Position numbers and translations under genes: made by a program. Below the pieces are notes generated by a model, which was not told the DNA's origin, searched no databases, and saw only the letters and a program-made list of their open reading frames with translations. This document shows positions 8,714-63,662 of a stretch of DNA of 64,000 nt, one piece after another (position 1 is the stretch's first letter; each line of letters begins with the position of its first letter). Source of the DNA: Escherichia phage EP1; the sequence record OR892555.1; one strand, 5' to 3'.

Positions 8714-9136
8714 TTAACTCTCTCTCATTTTGTTAAGTGTTTGTCGTGATAACTTTAAGCTTTCTGTAGAGGAAAAGTCAAGAACTTTTTCAGACCTTGG
8801 GAAGTAGTGTCTATCCCATGAACTTTCTACATCGCTAATCAGTGTTGTTAGGTTATCTAAGTCTGTTCCGTTTTGCAACTTCTTTTTTAAAGAATCTATC
8901 AAGAAGAGTGTATCTTTTGCTTTACGCCTCTCAGCAGATATCTCCTTCATATGCTCAAAGACTGAACATTTCATTCTTTCATCGTAACCTTCGGAGAGTT
9001 CAATCTCATGTTGAACATCAACCATTCGACGATGATGGTAAGCGTACTCCTTTTGAGCAGCAATGTCAAGTTCTTCCAACTTTTTTAAAGCTCTCATGAA
9101 GTCAGCTATGTCTGGGTGAACAAACATTCTCTGCAT
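8714..9136 (-). CDS. hypothetical protein (140 aa)
   Basis: ORF track. Confidence 0.4.
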   Translation of the reverse strand: MQRMFVHPDIADFMRALKKLEELDIAAQKEYAYHHRRMVDVQHEIELSEGYDERMKCSVFEHMKEISAERRKAKDTLFLIDSLKKKLQNGTDLDNLTTLISDVESSWDRHYFPRSEKVLDFSSTESLKLSRQTLNKMRES

Positions 9137-28434: not shown

Positions 28435-29231
28435 TAATAAGTTCCTTTCTTGTTTGGGTTAACTGAATGCTTCTGCATAGATTTACCACTTCCAGCACCA
28501 GTACTAAGAACTTGAGCAGCGTTTCTTTCAGCTTCATCACTAAAGGTTGTCTGCCCTTTACTGGTATTTGCAGAGCGACCACAAGCAGCCATAGCACGAT
28601 ATTCATCACTTGAAAGTTCTCTTACACCATTTGATTGTAGGTCATACAGAAGTTGACAGTTTAATTTACCGTTACCTAAAGAAGTTGTAGTATTACCAGT
28701 ATTCTTCTTTGAAGTTGCTCCACCATCATTTGTGGTAGCTGTTTTACCAGTTGCTGCTGAAACGTCAGTTTGTCCGACTACAGCTTTAAATTCCACACCT
28801 TGAAAAGTCATCTGAATACGAAGACCATTTGCAATCGTGTGTTCTTTATAAGCTTTGAAGTTTGTGATAATGCTATCGTCAATCTTAATACCATCTTTAC
28901 AGATAACAGAAATAATCTGTTTCTGGTCTCGCCAAGTTTCTACAGTGTCGATAAAGTTTTCTACAAGTTGGCCTTGACGGGTGCGTAATAGGCTACCTTC
29001 GTAGCCCACTACAACAACACCAGAGATAGTAATAGTCTTTGGAGCACGTTGAACGTTATCAGTTACAGTCTGTCCAGATTGCATTGTTTGAGTAGTCACC
29101 ATCATGGGTGAGTCATACTCCATACTCTCTGTTGCAGATAATGTCAAAAATGCGTCAACATTATCTCTCAGATGGAAGTAAATACCATCCTTACCAGAGT
29201 ATTTAATTTGCATATTAGAATTCCATAACAT
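28434..29231 (-). CDS. tail protein (265 aa)
   Basis: ORF track; tail module position. Confidence 0.4.
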
Positions 29232-31474
29232 TATTCTTCCTCTGGGTAACTTGAGTTAAGAAGGATATCTTCTTGGTGCTTGTCCATGATATCAACCATC
29301 TTAGTAGCAATCTGCTTACCATCAAGATTGAATGAAACATTCAGAGTCTGTCTAGTCTGCATAGGGAAACCAGAGGGTGTCATCATCATTGGTGTTTGAT
29401 TGAACTTAGTTGCAAAGTTATTTAAAGACTCTGACAAGTTGTTCATGATAATATCCCAATTGGACATTCCGTTATCAACAAAGCTACGATTACCTTGAGC
29501 ATCTACAGAATATTGTGCAAACTGTAGCTGTCCATTCTGGTCAAAAAACATTGGACGTTTTGGGTTGGTAATGCTTGATACAGCATCTTCAAAAGGCTTT
29601 GGAAGAGTAACTTCGTTGAACCTACCATTGTTCTTTCTGTCTGTAGAGCCAGATAACATCAATGATGAACCAACTGTACCAAGAACCATTCTGGTAGCTG
29701 TAACTCCTGCAACACCTGTAGCTGTTTCTGCTGTAGCTGCTGCACCACCTAGACCAAACTTCTGCATGATTTTTGCAAAGATACCTTCTTCAAAGATACT
29801 CTTAACGAATGCTACAGTGCCACCAAAGATTTTAGCAACCTTAGTAATAGCAGCAATTGCAACACCAATCATAGCAAAGGTTGAAACTAGTTCAGCAGAA
29901 TCCTTGATAAGTTTCTGTTGACTTGCATCCAAATCCTTGTACCATGCCATTGCAGAGTAATACAGTGAAGATGTTCTATACATGATATCTGTTACGAAGT
30001 CAAGTAAGTTACCAGCACCTTTTAACAGGTAACCAATCACTGTACCGAGTGCTTCAGCAGTACCCATAGAACCTTGTAAGAACATTGCAATGGATTGTGA
30101 AAGCTGTGAAATACCGTCGCTAGAGTTGTTAAACAATGCAACTAACATGTTATCCCACATAGACTTCGCTTGACCCATTGAGGTAGCTGTCTGCTTAGAT
30201 ACGGCATTCATACCACCTGCTGCCTGTACCAACTCAGCCATCTTTTCAGATACCTTTGGAAGTACATCTTCAGCAAGGAGCTTACCGTCTTTCATCAACT
30301 TATCAAGTTCTTGTGGGGTCTTACCAATAGCATCAGCAAATAACTGTACAGCACCTGCTAAACGGTCACCTAACTGACCACGAAGTTCTTCAGCCTGAAT
30401 CTTACCCTTAGAAGCCATCTGTTGGAAAGCAACCATGATACCTTTCAGGTCTTCGTCTGTTGCACCCCTGATACGAGAGAACATTGCAGCGTTCTTATAG
30501 AACTCCTGAGTTCCTTGGAATCCAAGAGCAGGTTGAGCACCAGCAGCAAAGTTTGAGTATTGCTTCATGGTATTTGTGTAGTTCTGTCCAATCTGATGAG
30601 CGAACGATGCAGCGAACATTCTAGCTTGCTGTGTATCTGCTCCGAAGATAGCTGTTGAGGCTAACTGTGCAGACTGTCTTTTAACACCTGCATCAATTGT
30701 CTTCTGAGCCAATTCTAAGGCTGCATAAGCTGAAACAAAACCACCAATCATCTGGCGTAGAGATGAGTTAGCTCTTTCCTGAAGCCAAGCTGATTCTCTG
30801 ACTGACTTGAGTCTAGCATTTTCTGCAATAACCCAACGCTTGGTAACGTCAATGAGCTTTTTGACTTCCATCTCATATTCACCGACTTTACCAGTTCCCT
30901 TATATTTGTTATAAAGACCTTGCAAGTTTCCTCTGAAGGAAGCTGCCATTTGGTTACCTTGCCCACCAATAGTTTCAAGGCGACGTGTCAGACCAGAATA
31001 GAAGTTGTTGTTAAACATTCTTTCCATCTGTCTCTGAGCAATATCAGGTCTTGGAGGTCTTGGGTTGCCACTTCCACCAGTAGGAGGGAAACCAGTACCA
31101 CCTTTTCTACCACCACGAACAGTGACTTTTCCATCAACTTTCATAGCGTCTCTTAAAGCCTTGTTAATTTCCTTGGCAGTTTTTCTACCTTGCGTCTCCA
31201 GTCTTTTAAGAGATTTAACACCTTGTGAATCAAGGTTAAGGGAGTTGTTGAGTGCTTTATTGATTCTGCCCGAAGCAGTCTGAGCGTTTTTTACAATTCT
31301 GTTTAATGCTTCCTGTGAAGACTTATTAGGTTTCACGTCAAAGGCTTTGTTAATATTACGTTCGATTCGTTGAGCAGACTGCATAGCCATCTTTTCAACT
31401 CTCTGCAAACCTTTAACAACCTTTTCACTGAAACCCAACTCCACAATAAAGCTATCAACTGTATATTGTGCCAT
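29231..31474 (-). CDS. tail tape measure protein
   Basis: 747 aa, Ala/Gly/Gln-rich and helical; directly after the chaperone pair, as in contractile and long-tail modules. Confidence 0.75.
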
Positions 31475-31713
31475 TAAATTTTACCTGCCCTTCTAAGTTC
31501 GTTATAAGCAATTTCTTCTTTGTATGACCTCTGGATTTCTAAATACTGTCGCAGAGATAATAAATCAGAGAAAGTCATTGAGAAGAGTTGGTCGAGTGTT
31601 TCTTTACACCCTTCCATACCGTAAATAGCAAGCACAAATTTCATCTCATCTGCTTCTTCATAAGTTGCTGCTACAGCCCCATCAGTCAATGGGGTCTGCA
31701 TAGCACTACTCAT
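31474..31713 (-). CDS. tail assembly chaperone T-segment (probably expressed as frameshift extension)
   Basis: 79-aa ORF in the -1 frame relative to the upstream chaperone, open from the slippery site through to its stop. Confidence 0.45.
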   Translation of the reverse strand: MSSAMQTPLTDGAVAATYEEADEMKFVLAIYGMEGCKETLDQLFSMTFSDLLSLRQYLEIQRSYKEEIAYNELRRAGKI

Positions 31714-31715
31714 GC

Positions 31716-32126
31716 TTACTGAGAAGTTAGGCTTTTGAAAATGCTTGCTTCGAAAAAACTTCCGAAATTAGCCTCCAGAGCAAATGCCAAGAAGTCAATA
31801 AATTCACCGTAGTTCGCTTGGAAGTATTTATCTACGTTTAGAGGGAAGTCATCTACAGTTGCACCTTGGAATAACAAAGCAGCCATTGAGTCAATATCGA
31901 GTTCATCAATACGGTCAAAGCAAGCTTCAACTAATTCTTTGAAAGGTACTGCTGTTACACTTTCTTCGCCTTCTTTCTGCTCTTTCCCAGATAAACTTGA
32001 AAACATCTGAGCAATTGTCGGTACAACAACTTTACCGAGTTTCATCGACATTTTAATACCATCTCTTGCACCTAGCAGGACAATATTCACTTTCTTACCA
32101 TTAATAATTTTAGATTCTGTCTTCAT
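31716..32126 (-). CDS. tail assembly chaperone (G-like)
   Basis: 136 aa between tube and tape measure; slippery T_TTT_TTC heptamer near its 3' end (plus-strand 31752-31758). Confidence 0.55.
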   Translation of the reverse strand: MKTESKIINGKKVNIVLLGARDGIKMSMKLGKVVVPTIAQMFSSLSGKEQKEGEESVTAVPFKELVEACFDRIDELDIDSMAALLFQGATVDDFPLNVDKYFQANYGEFIDFLAFALEANFGSFFEASIFKSLTSQ

Positions 32127-32205
32127 TGTGATTCCTTAAATTTCTTAGGTTCTATAAACGAAAAAAGGGAAGACCTTTTATAGTCTCCCCCTTATTAGGA
32201 TGTTC

Positions 32206-32652
32206 TTAAACACTTGACGCAGGAATCGTAGAAGTGTAGTCTAGCTTCTCACAACCAAAAATCCAAGTTTTAGAGTTCTGGTCACGACCAAGTTCAATCT
32301 GTGGAAGTTCCTGCAACCATGCGTTAATACCAGTTGCCAGAACAGAACCAGATGGGTCGTAGATTACGAAGTTAGAAGAGATATCTTCTTCAAGTTCCAT
32401 GTCATCTTGTTTAGCTTGAATCGCAGAAAGCATCTGGTTAGAGAGTGAAGTCTGCATTAGCTCAATCTCAATAGTACCTGTCTTATCTGCGTTTCTTGTC
32501 AGAGCTACCTGACCACCTGCACCAACAACTGGTGTAACAAGTGGAGAAGTTCTCTGTAGACGTAAGAATGAGTCTGGAGCAAAGCCTTCGATGGCAATAC
32601 CATTCCAGCTACATACAACGTCTTTAGGGGAATATTGCTGATACATAGCCAT
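32206..32652 (-). CDS. tail tube protein
   Basis: 148 aa directly downstream of the sheath gene. Confidence 0.55.
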   Translation of the reverse strand: MAMYQQYSPKDVVCSWNGIAIEGFAPDSFLRLQRTSPLVTPVVGAGGQVALTRNADKTGTIEIELMQTSLSNQMLSAIQAKQDDMELEEDISSNFVIYDPSGSVLATGINAWLQELPQIELGRDQNSKTWIFGCEKLDYTSTIPASSV

Positions 32653-32667
32653 TCCAATTTACCTCTA

Positions 32668-34020
32668 TTATTCGTAAGCCACTGTACCTTTCAAGTCAAC
32701 ATCCAAGATAGCACCTGCTAAGATACCTGCGAAGGTAACGTCTTTCAGGATACGAGCTTTCTTGTCTGCCAAAGCAACTTGAGAGGCTTTAGGAACATTA
32801 ACTGTATAAGATGACAGGAAGTTTCTGTTAACTGCTCTTTGCAGAGAGGTTTCAATGACCTGACGAATACGGGTAATACCAGTATCATCATAAGTAATCT
32901 TACCACCCTTCTGATTAATTAGCAAGTCTCTAAGAGAAGTTTTCAAGTCAGATTCTAACCAGTCAACACCACGGATGATATCAATCCATTCACCACCAGA
33001 AGTGATACCTCTACGTACAACTGGAACACCGCCATCAAGGTCGATGAAGTTGCAGTGACGTACATCCAAAGCGGATTTCTGAATGCTTGTCAGAGGTCTC
33101 TGGTTAGCTGGCTGAAGAGATGCTTCAACACCAGTCAACTGAGCGTTACCCCAAGCAATGGAACCTGCGTCATATGGAGCACCATAAGCGATGTAAGCCA
33201 TTTCTGGGTAGTCATAACTTGCAGTGTGATGCCATAGGCAAACAGTACGTGTGTACATGCTCTTAGCAAGTTGTGCAGGAACATCAGAAGCTGATGCCAA
33301 TTCAGTACCTTGCAGGGCAGCTACATCAGAGTTAGCTGTGAAGAAAATCTTCTTACGAGCCTGAATCTCAGAAGCCATTGCCAAGACGAACTGTGTAGTT
33401 CTATCTTCAGCAGCAATGAAGTACCAGTCAGTTGAGTACGTTTCAATTGCAGCCAGAGCAGTTGCAGCAGTATCAGCAGTTGTACCAGCGATTGATACAG
33501 TGTTGGTTGTTGATGTAACTTTTACGAAGTCATTGTCACCAGCTTTTGTAACAATCATGGTTGCAGAGCTACCAGTACCTGTTACGTTGATAGTAACATC
33601 ATCTTTGATTGTTTGGTCAGCTTCAATCTGCTCTTTAAACTGCGTCAGTACAATCAGAGCGGTGTCATCAGCTTGAGCAGTGTATTGGTATGGCTGAGAA
33701 ACCCCACCACCTACAGCAACCGTCAGAGAGTAATCTGTGCTTTCAGTTACTTCATCGGGGATTGAAACTGTATACTGCATAGCACGTCTACCAATATATA
33801 GCTGAGTTACTTTTGGAGTCTGACTCCATAGTTGTTTTGCAGCTTTATAAGCAGCAGTACTTTCACCGAAATCTTCAGCAACTTCAGTCAGAGAAGTATA
33901 GCCACGAACCCTTTCTTCAAAGTTGTCTGTTGACGCTAAGAATAATGGTAGACCAAAACCTTCTCTCGTAGTTCCTGCGGTGTTCAATGTAATATCTACA
34001 TTAACAATTGGATTCCACAT
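32668..34020 (-). CDS. tail sheath protein
   Basis: 450 aa preceding tube, chaperones and tape measure; indicates a contractile tail. Confidence 0.65.
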   Translation of the reverse strand: MWNPIVNVDITLNTAGTTREGFGLPLFLASTDNFEERVRGYTSLTEVAEDFGESTAAYKAAKQLWSQTPKVTQLYIGRRAMQYTVSIPDEVTESTDYSLTVAVGGGVSQPYQYTAQADDTALIVLTQFKEQIEADQTIKDDVTINVTGTGSSATMIVTKAGDNDFVKVTSTTNTVSIAGTTADTAATALAAIETYSTDWYFIAAEDRTTQFVLAMASEIQARKKIFFTANSDVAALQGTELASASDVPAQLAKSMYTRTVCLWHHTASYDYPEMAYIAYGAPYDAGSIAWGNAQLTGVEASLQPANQRPLTSIQKSALDVRHCNFIDLDGGVPVVRRGITSGGEWIDIIRGVDWLESDLKTSLRDLLINQKGGKITYDDTGITRIRQVIETSLQRAVNRNFLSSYTVNVPKASQVALADKKARILKDVTFAGILAGAILDVDLKGTVAYE

Positions 34021-63257: not shown

Positions 63258-63662
63258 TTAAAGTTCTGCGTAAATTGCATCACAGATATCACGAAAATCA
63301 TAGCTTGTTAAGTTACGTTGTAACCATGTTGCGAAAAAATCAGCTATTGCAAAATTTGCATCATACTCAACAGACAACCACACTTTTACAGCAAATCGAA
63401 ACATTTTCAAGTCAAGTTCTTTATTCATTACTTTTGATTTGCCCAACATATCAACCATTTCATATTGTGCTCCGTCAAGTGTAACACCTGAAGCAACATT
63501 TGCAAGTGAATTTTTTACGTTTTCAACGTCTAAGATTGCACCTTGAATCTTTCCAATAATGTTGTGTAGTGTTTCATCTGGTGCTGCTGATGTAATTACG
63601 TTGATGCGGTTAACGGTCAAACGTGCTTTTAGGATTGCAGTGTCGCGATTGTTAATAGCCAT
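63258..63662 (-). CDS. hypothetical protein (134 aa)
   Basis: ORF track; conserved leader. Confidence 0.4.
   Translation of the reverse strand: MAINNRDTAILKARLTVNRINVITSAAPDETLHNIIGKIQGAILDVENVKNSLANVASGVTLDGAQYEMVDMLGKSKVMNKELDLKMFRFAVKVWLSVEYDANFAIADFFATWLQRNLTSYDFRDICDAIYAEL

What the first reader, a model, noticed from the sequence alone, without database searches (positions are those of the whole stretch)
31716..31760. Slippery heptamer for a -1 frameshift joining the tail assembly chaperone ORFs
The G-like chaperone ORF (31716-32126) contains T_TTT_TTC in the zero frame (plus-strand 31752-31758), 34 nt before its stop. The -1 frame from this point is open through the entire 79-aa downstream ORF (31474-31713) with no intervening stop. 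This matches the conserved G/GT frameshift of tailed phages, so the 79-aa ORF is probably made only as a fusion.
Basis: partly seen in the sequence, partly recalled or inferred. Interest (0 to 1): 0.45.

Follow-up and report, generated by a model that had tools for sequence, protein, structure and literature searches.

The report
Tail chaperone -1 frameshift site
This is the standard "G/GT" programmed -1 ribosomal frameshift that long-tailed phages use to make a short and a long tail-assembly chaperone; the site is real and deeply conserved, but it has already been described for this phage family.

Summary
On the minus strand, the 136-aa tail assembly chaperone ORF (32126-31716, Pfam PF21822) carries T_TTT_TTC (31758-31752) in its zero frame. 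From there the -1 frame is open for 92 codons, through the 79-aa ORF (31713-31474), to a stop that overlaps the tape-measure start. The predicted fusion is 217 aa.

The window is a Suspvirus (Felix O1-like myovirus, Andersonviridae). I compared 14 lineage clusters of this chaperone family, spanning 25-100% amino-acid identity and 37-65% GC. Twelve keep NNT TTT TTN in frame, and the other two keep an in-frame T_TTC or T_TTT tetramer. The fusion length stays near 200-220 aa. The ORF2 ATG is not conserved. Synonymous variability collapses around the site.

No conserved downstream RNA structure exists in the Felix O1-like group. A GGAGG lies 13 nt upstream and may act as a stimulator.

The frameshift is already annotated in phage Moogle (RefSeq joined CDS). 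It was published for Moogle and Mijalis, and in 2025 for 231 Andersonviridae genomes. Only the annotation of Suspvirus records, which list two separate CDS, is behind.

Verdict: supported, ordinary, already known. No experiment has yet shown the fusion protein.

The parts
31716..32126 (-). Tail assembly chaperone ORF1 (gpG-like, TAC-N), 136 aa, zero frame
31752..31758 (-). Slippery heptamer T_TTT_TTC in the ORF1 zero frame (codons Ser123-Phe124-Phe125 = AGT TTT TTC)
   Evidence: Sequence and frame arithmetic. Conserved as NNT TTT TTN in 12 of 14 lineage clusters. U_UU.C is the second-best tetramer in E. coli, and all-pyrimidine heptamers are shift-prone (PMC4066793).
31474..31752 (-). -1 frame extension read after the shift. 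C31752 is re-read. It comprises a 13-aa linker RSKHFQKPNFSVS, then the 79 aa of ORF2, then the stop at 31476-31474. Predicted fusion: 125 + 92 = 217 aa.
   Evidence: Translation. Fusion length is 191-221 aa in the relatives whose ORF1 start is held.
31474..31713 (-). ORF2 as usually annotated (79 aa; T-like domain, TAC-C)
   Evidence: phrog_4963 'tail assembly chaperone' E=4e-53. No SD-like sequence lies upstream of ATG 31713 or ATG 31701. RefSeq SUSP2 annotates it as a separate 75-aa CDS.
31768..31770 (-). TAA stop in the -1 frame that bounds the 49-nt overlap window just upstream of the heptamer
31772..31776 (-). SD-like GGAGG (CTG GAG GCT), 13 nt 5' of the heptamer. Candidate upstream stimulator (inferred).
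   Evidence: Sequence. It falls inside the 6-17 nt interval that PMC4066793 used for SD-like stimulators. GAGG or GGAG occurs at this place in about 20 of 31 lineage representatives, but not in Kolesnikvirus or Yersinia phage P778. GGAGG occurs only 12 times inside the window's ORFs.
29231..31474 (-). Tape measure protein gene; its ATG overlaps the -1 frame stop (TAATG)
   Evidence: PF20155 TMP_3. phrog_4036 E=0. Junction sequence.
32206..32652 (-). Tail tube gene upstream of the chaperone
   Evidence: PF11681; phrog_280; role inferred from its position after the sheath gene.
32668..34020 (-). Tail sheath gene
   Evidence: phrog_205 tail sheath E=6e-120

Best explanation
A small fraction of ribosomes translating the chaperone ORF1 slip back one nucleotide. 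They do so when Phe-tRNAs occupy the P site (UUU) and the A site (UUC) of U_UUU_UUC at 31758-31752, and the tRNAs re-pair with UUU UUU. Those ribosomes then read CGA AGC AAG and onward in the -1 frame. They pass the ORF1 stop, read through ORF2 and terminate at 31476-31474. The result is two proteins from one start codon: an abundant 136-aa chaperone (gpG-like) and a minor 217-aa fusion (gpGT-like). By analogy with lambda G/GT, the shared N-terminal part coats the tape measure protein and the -1-encoded C-terminal domain recruits the tube protein. Neither protein ends up in the virion. What is shown here: the sequence anatomy, family membership, and nucleotide-level conservation of the site and of the open -1 frame. 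What is inferred: that slippage happens at all, its efficiency (probably about one to a few percent), the role of the upstream GGAGG, and the protein functions.
For: Anatomy and register are confirmed. Gene order is sheath, tube, TAC, -1 ORF, TMP, and ORF1 matches PF21822. Conservation is strong. There are 31 lineage representatives in 14 clusters at 50% identity. Twelve clusters keep NNT TTT TTN in frame. The preceding amino acid changes (AGT, GAT, ACT, GGT, TGT) but its third base stays T. This holds even in 61-65% GC genomes, where P(NNT|aa) is 0.10-0.19 and P(TTT|Phe) is 0.20-0.36. My hand product of the values, one representative per cluster, is about 7e-10 if lineages are treated as independent. 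The two remaining clusters keep in-frame T_TTC or T_TTT tetramers. The -1 frame is open past the ORF1 stop in 70 of the 71 IMG/VR loci; in the other (L046) the held DNA ends at the ORF1 stop. It is also open in the six GenBank loci examined. Fusion length stays at 191-221 aa while ORF1 varies from 124 to 177 aa. The ORF2 ATG is lost in L019 (ATA). There is no start before extension residue 37-62 in L031, L076, L054, L057 and L058. Third-position variability is 0.026 across ORF1 nt 361-390, against 0.14-0.29 in the preceding twelve 30-nt blocks of ORF1, in 31 unique Ounavirinae sequences. In E. coli, U_UU.C is the second most shift-prone tetramer and all-pyrimidine heptamers are shift-prone (PMC4066793). 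Moogle RefSeq carries a joined CDS of the length predicted here. The frameshift is published for Moogle, Mijalis and Andersonviridae as a whole.
Against: There is no experimental evidence for the fusion protein in any Felix O1-like phage, either in the papers found or here. In the Felix O1-like group there is no conserved downstream stimulatory structure: RNAalifold gives -0.37 kcal/mol with no covariation, and local folds are not better than shuffles (z = -0.64). Efficiency may therefore be low. This phage has an ATG 2 nt after the ORF1 stop, so a free ORF2 product made by reinitiation is possible. The independence assumption behind the 7e-10 figure is generous.
Confidence: 0.86

Rival explanations
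1. ORF2 is made as a free 79-aa (or 75-aa) protein. Initiation would be at ATG 31713 or 31701, for instance by termination-reinitiation after the ORF1 stop two nucleotides upstream. The T-run would then be only the codons of a conserved Ser-Phe-Phe motif.
For: The stop-N2-ATG spacing in the window and the stop-N3-ATG spacing in Felixounavirus fit translational coupling. Nearly all public records annotate two separate CDS.
Against: No SD-like sequence precedes either ATG. The ATG is ATA in L019 and absent in the Kolesnikvirus-like loci L031 and L076. In the GC-rich relatives the first possible start lies at residue 62 of an 82-84-aa extension. Gene callers pick inconsistent starts: 43, 56, 71, 79 and 98 aa. 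The rival does not explain why the wobble T of the preceding codon and TTT rather than TTC are kept in 61-65% GC genomes.
Confidence: 0.08
2. The frame change is transcriptional. RNA polymerase stutters on the T6 run and adds one U, producing a minority of mRNAs in which ORF1 and ORF2 are in frame.
For: The site is a homopolymer. One GenBank record (phage CL1, OK040806.1) has T7 here and encodes exactly the predicted fusion as a single CDS, which shows the run is where length changes occur.
Against: Efficient bacterial RNAP slippage needs runs of about 9 A or T, and none is detectable at T5C5 without special context (PMC5009743). The run here is T6. It is only T4 in the CTT TTC lineages. The run is held in one codon register (NNT TTT TTN) in 12 of 14 clusters, which matters for ribosomes but not for RNA polymerase.
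Confidence: 0.03
3. The -1 shift happens mainly at a neighbouring in-frame U_UUC tetramer rather than at the heptamer. The candidates are AAT TTC at 31767-31764 and ATT TTC at 31740-31737. The fusion would have the same length with a slightly different junction.
For: Both tetramers lie inside the open -1 window. U_UU.C is shift-prone in E. coli. The downstream one is invariant in Ounavirinae.
Against: In the reporter series, the most efficient heptamer reached 54% and the most efficient tetramer 5.6%. Outside Ounavirinae the downstream tetramer is not conserved, whereas the heptamer is.
Confidence: 0.03

Closest known systems
Citrobacter phage Moogle / Mijalis tape-measure chaperone frameshift (Mooglevirus, Ounavirinae) and the 'GTTTTT' motif reported for 231 Andersonviridae and 56 Vandenendeviridae alleles
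   Same: Homologous genes: the fusion is 74% identical by tblastn. The AGT TTT TTC heptamer is identical and sits at the same codon. The fusion architecture is the same. The RefSeq joined CDS spans 638 nt, which matches the 212-aa fusion predicted here for the Moogle-like locus. Published in PMC4319497, PMC5543628 and PMC12846349.
   Different: Nothing mechanistic differs. ORF1 ends 9 nt earlier in the window. Suspvirus records (SUSP2, mistaenkt, EcSzw-2) still list two separate CDS.
Phage lambda gpG/gpGT -1 frameshift (G_GGA_AAG)
   Same: [quoted passage not shown] It gives a minor fusion whose C-terminal domain is read only in the -1 frame, and neither product is in virions (PMC5009743).
   Different: The heptamer differs (U_UUU_UUC on tRNA-Phe versus G_GGA_AAG on tRNA-Gly and tRNA-Lys). 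There is no detectable sequence similarity. The host virus is a myovirus with a sheath. The ratio of products has not been measured here.
Phage P2 E / E+E' (myovirus counterpart)
   Same: A contractile-tail phage with a -1 shift on a T-rich heptamer between the tube and tape measure genes. The heptamer identity is from my own memory and was not checked here. The review states that P2-type efficiency is 2-3 fold higher than lambda.
   Different: It is a different chaperone family; no P2-like match was seen in the Pfam or PHROG results for ORF1.
E. coli dnaX and IS911/IS3 -1 frameshift cassettes
   Same: An upstream SD-like element within 6-17 nt of the motif is a proven stimulator in these systems. 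The window has GGAGG 13 nt upstream.
   Different: Those cassettes also have a strong downstream hairpin or pseudoknot. None is conserved in the Felix O1-like group, although GC-rich relatives of the chaperone family do have one 3-9 nt downstream.

Membership tests
G/GT-type tail assembly chaperone frameshift of long-tailed phages | Two ORFs located between the major tail/tube gene and the tape measure gene | tested here: met
   Order on the minus strand is sheath 34020-32668, tube 32652-32206, ORF1, ORF2, TMP 31474-29231.
G/GT-type tail assembly chaperone frameshift of long-tailed phages | The upstream ORF is a tail assembly chaperone | tested here: met
   [not shown]
G/GT-type tail assembly chaperone frameshift of long-tailed phages | The downstream ORF is in the -1 frame, overlaps the 3' end of the first, and lacks its own conserved start and RBS | tested here: met
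   Frame arithmetic and a 49-nt overlap window. No SD-like sequence precedes the ATG, and the ATG is not conserved in relatives.
G/GT-type tail assembly chaperone frameshift of long-tailed phages | A slippery X_XXY_YYZ sequence in the zero frame inside the overlap, conserved among relatives | tested here: met
   T_TTT_TTC at 31758-31752. Conserved in 12 of 14 clusters; the other two keep a tetramer. Synonymous variability is depressed at the site.
G/GT-type tail assembly chaperone frameshift of long-tailed phages | Both the short product and the fusion are actually made, at a fixed ratio, and both are needed for tail assembly | not testable with these tools
   This needs a western blot, mass spectrometry, a reporter assay and phage genetics. 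None of the papers read reports experimental data for Felix O1-like phages.
G/GT-type tail assembly chaperone frameshift of long-tailed phages | The C-terminal (T) domain binds the tube protein | not tested
   There is only a PHROG annotation. No structure was predicted for the extension.
Transcriptional-slippage recoding site | A homopolymer run long enough for RNAP realignment (about 9 A/T, or shorter with a nascent-RNA hairpin immediately 5') | tested here: not met
   The run is T6 followed by C. Some lineages have only T4. The criterion comes from PMC5009743.
dnaX/IS3-type cassette with downstream stimulatory structure | A conserved hairpin or pseudoknot starting 4-10 nt after the motif | tested here: not met
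   In the window, a 13-bp imperfect stem at 31748-31698 (-12.2 kcal/mol) meets the empirical rules of PMC4066793. However, its z-score is -0.64 against shuffles and it is not conserved in Felixounavirus. No Rfam match.

The most novel reading that the evidence does not exclude
In the Felix O1-like group the shift may be stimulated by something other than a downstream RNA structure. Three things surround the heptamer. The invariant peptide F-A-L-E-A-N-F-G-S-F-F would sit in the exit tunnel when the ribosome is on the heptamer. The SD-like GGAGG lies 13 nt upstream. About 30 invariant nucleotides lie downstream. These could together form a nascent-peptide or primary-sequence stimulator rather than reflecting protein function and dual coding alone.
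Probability: 0.07. Interest if true: 0.5.

Novelty: already known. Interest (0 to 1): 0.14.

Why it matters
The practical value is for annotation. The Suspvirus and Felixounavirus GenBank/RefSeq records examined here list two separate chaperone CDS, often with arbitrary starts for the second. The correct product is a joined CDS, complement(join(31474..31752,31752..32126)) in window coordinates. The comparative data also show that AGT TTT TTC is a very deeply conserved slippery site. It is retained from 37% to 65% GC and down to about 25% protein identity in the PF21822 chaperone family. That makes it a reliable landmark for finding the chaperone and tape measure genes in uncharacterised myovirus contigs. 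It opens no new biological question.

Tried and rejected
Searches for a downstream stimulatory structure led nowhere.
- Folding 131 nt gave a long-range stem with z = -2.3, but it depends on where the fragment is cut.
- Folding 70 nt downstream gave z = -0.64 in the window and similar values in other Ounavirinae.
- RNAalifold on nine Ounavirinae sequences gave -0.37 kcal/mol and no covariation.
- The neat hairpin at 31698-31674 starts 54 nt after the heptamer, too far to act on a ribosome at the site, and it is absent in Felixounavirus.
- An Rfam scan of 31400-32200 returned only a chance-level hit, E = 5.9.

Protein searches added little.
- A PDB sequence search with the fusion found nothing.
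- A homologue search with the 217-aa fusion returned only ORF1-sized proteins of 123-140 aa and no fused protein.
- A search with ORF2 alone returned only six proteins. That database evidently lacks the Moogle and CL1 fusion entries.

Literature searches added no experimental evidence.
- The PhageMaP (Bas63) and PRFect papers hold nothing on this site.
- Vladimirov et al. 2022 on T4-like chaperones is not held. According to the PRFect paper, those phages carry separate short and long genes.

Transcriptional slippage and chance co-occurrence were considered and rejected for the reasons given under the rival explanations.

Full report
**Identity of the window.** The 4.8-kb stretch 29231-34020 is 97-98% identical to Escherichia phages EcSzw-2, SUSP2, phiSUSP1 and mistaenkt. 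It is about 84% identical to some 250 Felix O1-like phages. These belong to the genus Suspvirus, subfamily Ounavirinae, family Andersonviridae. The genes of interest lie on the minus strand in this order:
- tail sheath, 34020-32668 (phrog_205)
- tube, 32652-32206
- ORF1, 32126-31716, 136 aa
- ORF2, 31713-31474, 79 aa
- tape measure protein, 31474-29231 (PF20155, phrog_4036)

ORF1 matches Pfam PF21822 'Phage_TAC_15' (E=1e-21). ORF2 matches phrog_4963, which is annotated as tail assembly chaperone (E=4e-53).

**Checking the observation.** The minus-strand zero-frame codons around the site are CTG GAG GCT AAT TTC GGA AGT TTT TTC GAA GCA AGC ATT TTC AAA AGC CTA ACT TCT CAG TAA. T_TTT_TTC therefore occupies 31758-31752 in the X_XXY_YYZ register. 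ORF2 is in the -1 frame of ORF1. That frame is closed by TAA at 31770-31768, three codons before the heptamer. After the shift it stays open for 92 codons, until TAA at 31476-31474, which overlaps the tape-measure ATG (TAATG). A shift at the heptamer gives 125 + 13 + 79 = 217 aa, with the junction ...ANFGSFF|RSKHFQKPNFSVS|MSSAMQ....

The site is not a chance find. In-frame X_XXY_YYZ heptamers occur at 0.0033 per codon in the window's ORFs, which gives 0.05 expected in the 16-codon overlap. In-frame TTTTTTN occurs only twice in 17,446 codons. I listed eight shift-prone heptamer types, and four in-frame copies occur in these ORFs. Only this copy opens a long -1 ORF: 92 codons against 4-9 for the others.

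**Comparative evidence.** An alignment of 20 ORF1 homologues down to 41% identity shows Ser123-Phe124-Phe125 and the preceding FALEANF motif to be invariant. A scan of IMG/VR with that alignment returned 71 loci at 25-100% identity. I added GenBank loci for Moogle, CL1, Erwinia phage Panisse, Yersinia phage P778, Pectobacterium phage Arno18 and the rV5-like phage UPEC06. This gave 31 lineage representatives, which fall into 14 clusters at 50% identity.

- Twelve clusters have NNT TTT TTN in the zero frame at the homologous codons.
- The amino acid before the two Phe codons varies (AGT Ser, GAT Asp, ACT Thr, GGT Gly, TGT Cys), yet its third base is always T.
- The first Phe codon is always TTT, even in genomes of 61-65% GC. 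In those genomes local codon usage gives P(NNT) of 0.10-0.19 and P(TTT|Phe) of 0.20-0.36.
- Multiplying one representative per cluster from the values gives about 7e-10. This assumes the lineages are independent, which is generous, but synonymous sites are saturated at these distances.
- The other two clusters have CTT TTC/T or GTT TTT. These retain an in-frame U_UUC or U_UUU tetramer.

Several further observations point the same way.
- The -1 frame is open beyond the ORF1 stop in 70 of the 71 IMG/VR loci. In the remaining locus, L046, the held DNA ends at the ORF1 stop. It is also open in the six GenBank loci.
- ORF1 length ranges from 124 to 177 aa and the overlap from 34 to 244 nt. Two loci show 802 nt because their -1 frame happens to be open far upstream. 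Despite this, the predicted fusion stays at 191-221 aa where the ORF1 start is held.
- The ORF2 start codon is not conserved. It is ATA in the Felixounavirus locus L019. It is absent in the Kolesnikvirus-like loci L031 and L076. In several GC-rich relatives the first possible start lies at residue 62 of an 82-84-aa extension.
- Gene callers accordingly give ORF2 homologues inconsistent lengths.
- Among 31 unique Ounavirinae sequences, third-position variability is 0.026 in ORF1 nt 361-390, which covers the heptamer and the overlap. It is 0.14-0.29 in the preceding twelve 30-nt blocks of ORF1.

**Mechanism.** U_UUU_UUC lets both Phe-tRNAs re-pair perfectly or by G:U wobble after a one-base backward slip. 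The systematic E. coli study ranks U_UU.C as the second most shift-prone tetramer after A_AA.G. It finds UUN and AAN codons the most shift-prone, and all-pyrimidine X/Z combinations shift-prone (PMC4066793).

I looked for stimulators. Downstream, GC-rich relatives have strong hairpins starting 3-9 nt after the motif. Their sequences are unrelated (for example L054, L062, L069, L060, L041), which suggests selection for structure there. The window and the other Ounavirinae have nothing that beats shuffled controls (z = -0.64). No consensus structure or covariation was found, and there is no Rfam match.

Upstream, the window has GGAGG (31776-31772) 13 nt before the heptamer. This lies inside the 6-17 nt interval used for SD-like stimulators in that study. 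GGAGG is rare inside the window's ORFs, with 12 occurrences. Given Leu-Glu-Ala, it requires two minority codon choices: P(GAG|Glu) = 0.30 and P(NNG|Leu) = 0.34. About 20 of 31 representatives have GAGG or GGAG here, but Kolesnikvirus and Yersinia phage P778 do not. I therefore treat it as a plausible stimulator, not an established one.

Lambda G/GT works at a few percent, and a 30:1 ratio of products is what tail assembly needs (PMC5009743). A weakly stimulated heptamer would therefore be adequate.

**Rivals.** Independent translation of ORF2 is conceivable in this phage, because ATG 31713 lies 2 nt after the ORF1 stop. It lacks an SD-like sequence, however, and the start is not conserved. This rival also leaves the nucleotide-level conservation of the heptamer unexplained.

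Transcriptional slippage is unlikely for three reasons. Efficient bacterial RNAP slippage needs about 9 A or T. The run here is T6, and only T4 in some lineages. The run is also held in one codon register, which matters to ribosomes but not to RNA polymerase.

A shift at one of the flanking in-frame U_UUC tetramers (31767-31764 or 31740-31737) would give a fusion of the same length. Only mass spectrometry can separate that from a shift at the heptamer. The heptamer is favoured by its far wider conservation.

**Comparison with what is known.** This is the conserved G/GT-type frameshift of long-tailed phages, and it has already been recognised in this very family.
- Mijalis reports the same (PMC5543628).
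- Moogle's RefSeq record carries a two-piece joined CDS. Its 638-nt span equals the 212-aa fusion I predict for the Moogle-like locus.
- A 2025 paper on Pseudomonas phage Adele reports an invariant GTTTTT motif and an uninterrupted -1 frame in 56 Vandenendeviridae alleles. It reports the same motif in 231 Andersonviridae genomes (PMC12846349).

**Verdict.** Novelty: already known. Interest is low (0.14). The useful outcome is a corrected annotation, complement(join(31474..31752,31752..32126)), and the recognition that AGT TTT TTC is a robust landmark of the PF21822 chaperone family.

Noticed in passing
window 32164-32193 (minus strand): A terminator-like hairpin (12 pairs) followed by a T-run sits in the 79-nt gap between the tube gene and chaperone ORF1. 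It could lower transcription into the chaperone and tape-measure genes relative to sheath and tube. The scan found 3 terminator-like sites in the region against 3.1 expected, so this one rests on its position and stem length only.
   Followed up: no
window 31674-31698 (minus strand), inside ORF2: The hairpin CAGACCCCAU-UGACUG-AUGGGGCUG starts 54 nt after the heptamer. In the Moogle-like loci L015 and L028 a double synonymous change (CCA..GAT to CCG..GAC) keeps the fifth pair. The hairpin is absent in Felixounavirus. It is too far from the heptamer to stimulate the frameshift, and its function is unknown.
   Followed up: partly
L075 (GenBank OK040806.1, Escherichia phage CL1) 957-963: This record has T7 instead of T6 at the slip site. 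ORF1 and ORF2 are therefore one in-frame 213-aa CDS, identical in layout to the predicted frameshift product. The likeliest cause is a homopolymer sequencing error; a real mutant making only the fusion is the alternative.
   Followed up: partly
GenBank GU169904.1 'Staphylococcus phage SA1' 74360-74997: A record labelled as a Staphylococcus phage holds a Felix O1-like chaperone locus that is 81% identical at the protein level to the window's fusion. This suggests a chimeric or contaminated assembly.
   Followed up: no
[not shown]
   Followed up: no
loci L058, L062-L065, L067, L069, L071-L073 (61-65% GC relatives): These loci carry a second in-frame slippery heptamer, A_AAT_TTC (GCA AAT TTC), 12 nt upstream of T_TTT_TTC and inside the open -1 window. 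It is built from codons that are rare in those genomes. They also have strong hairpins of unrelated sequence 3-9 nt downstream of the main site.
   Followed up: partly
window 8714-9136 (minus) and 63258-63662 (minus): Other in-frame strong heptamers occur here: two A_AAA_AAG at 9080-9086 and 8882-8888, and one T_TTT_TTC at 63333-63339. Their -1 frames close after 4-9 codons, so they look incidental.
   Followed up: partly
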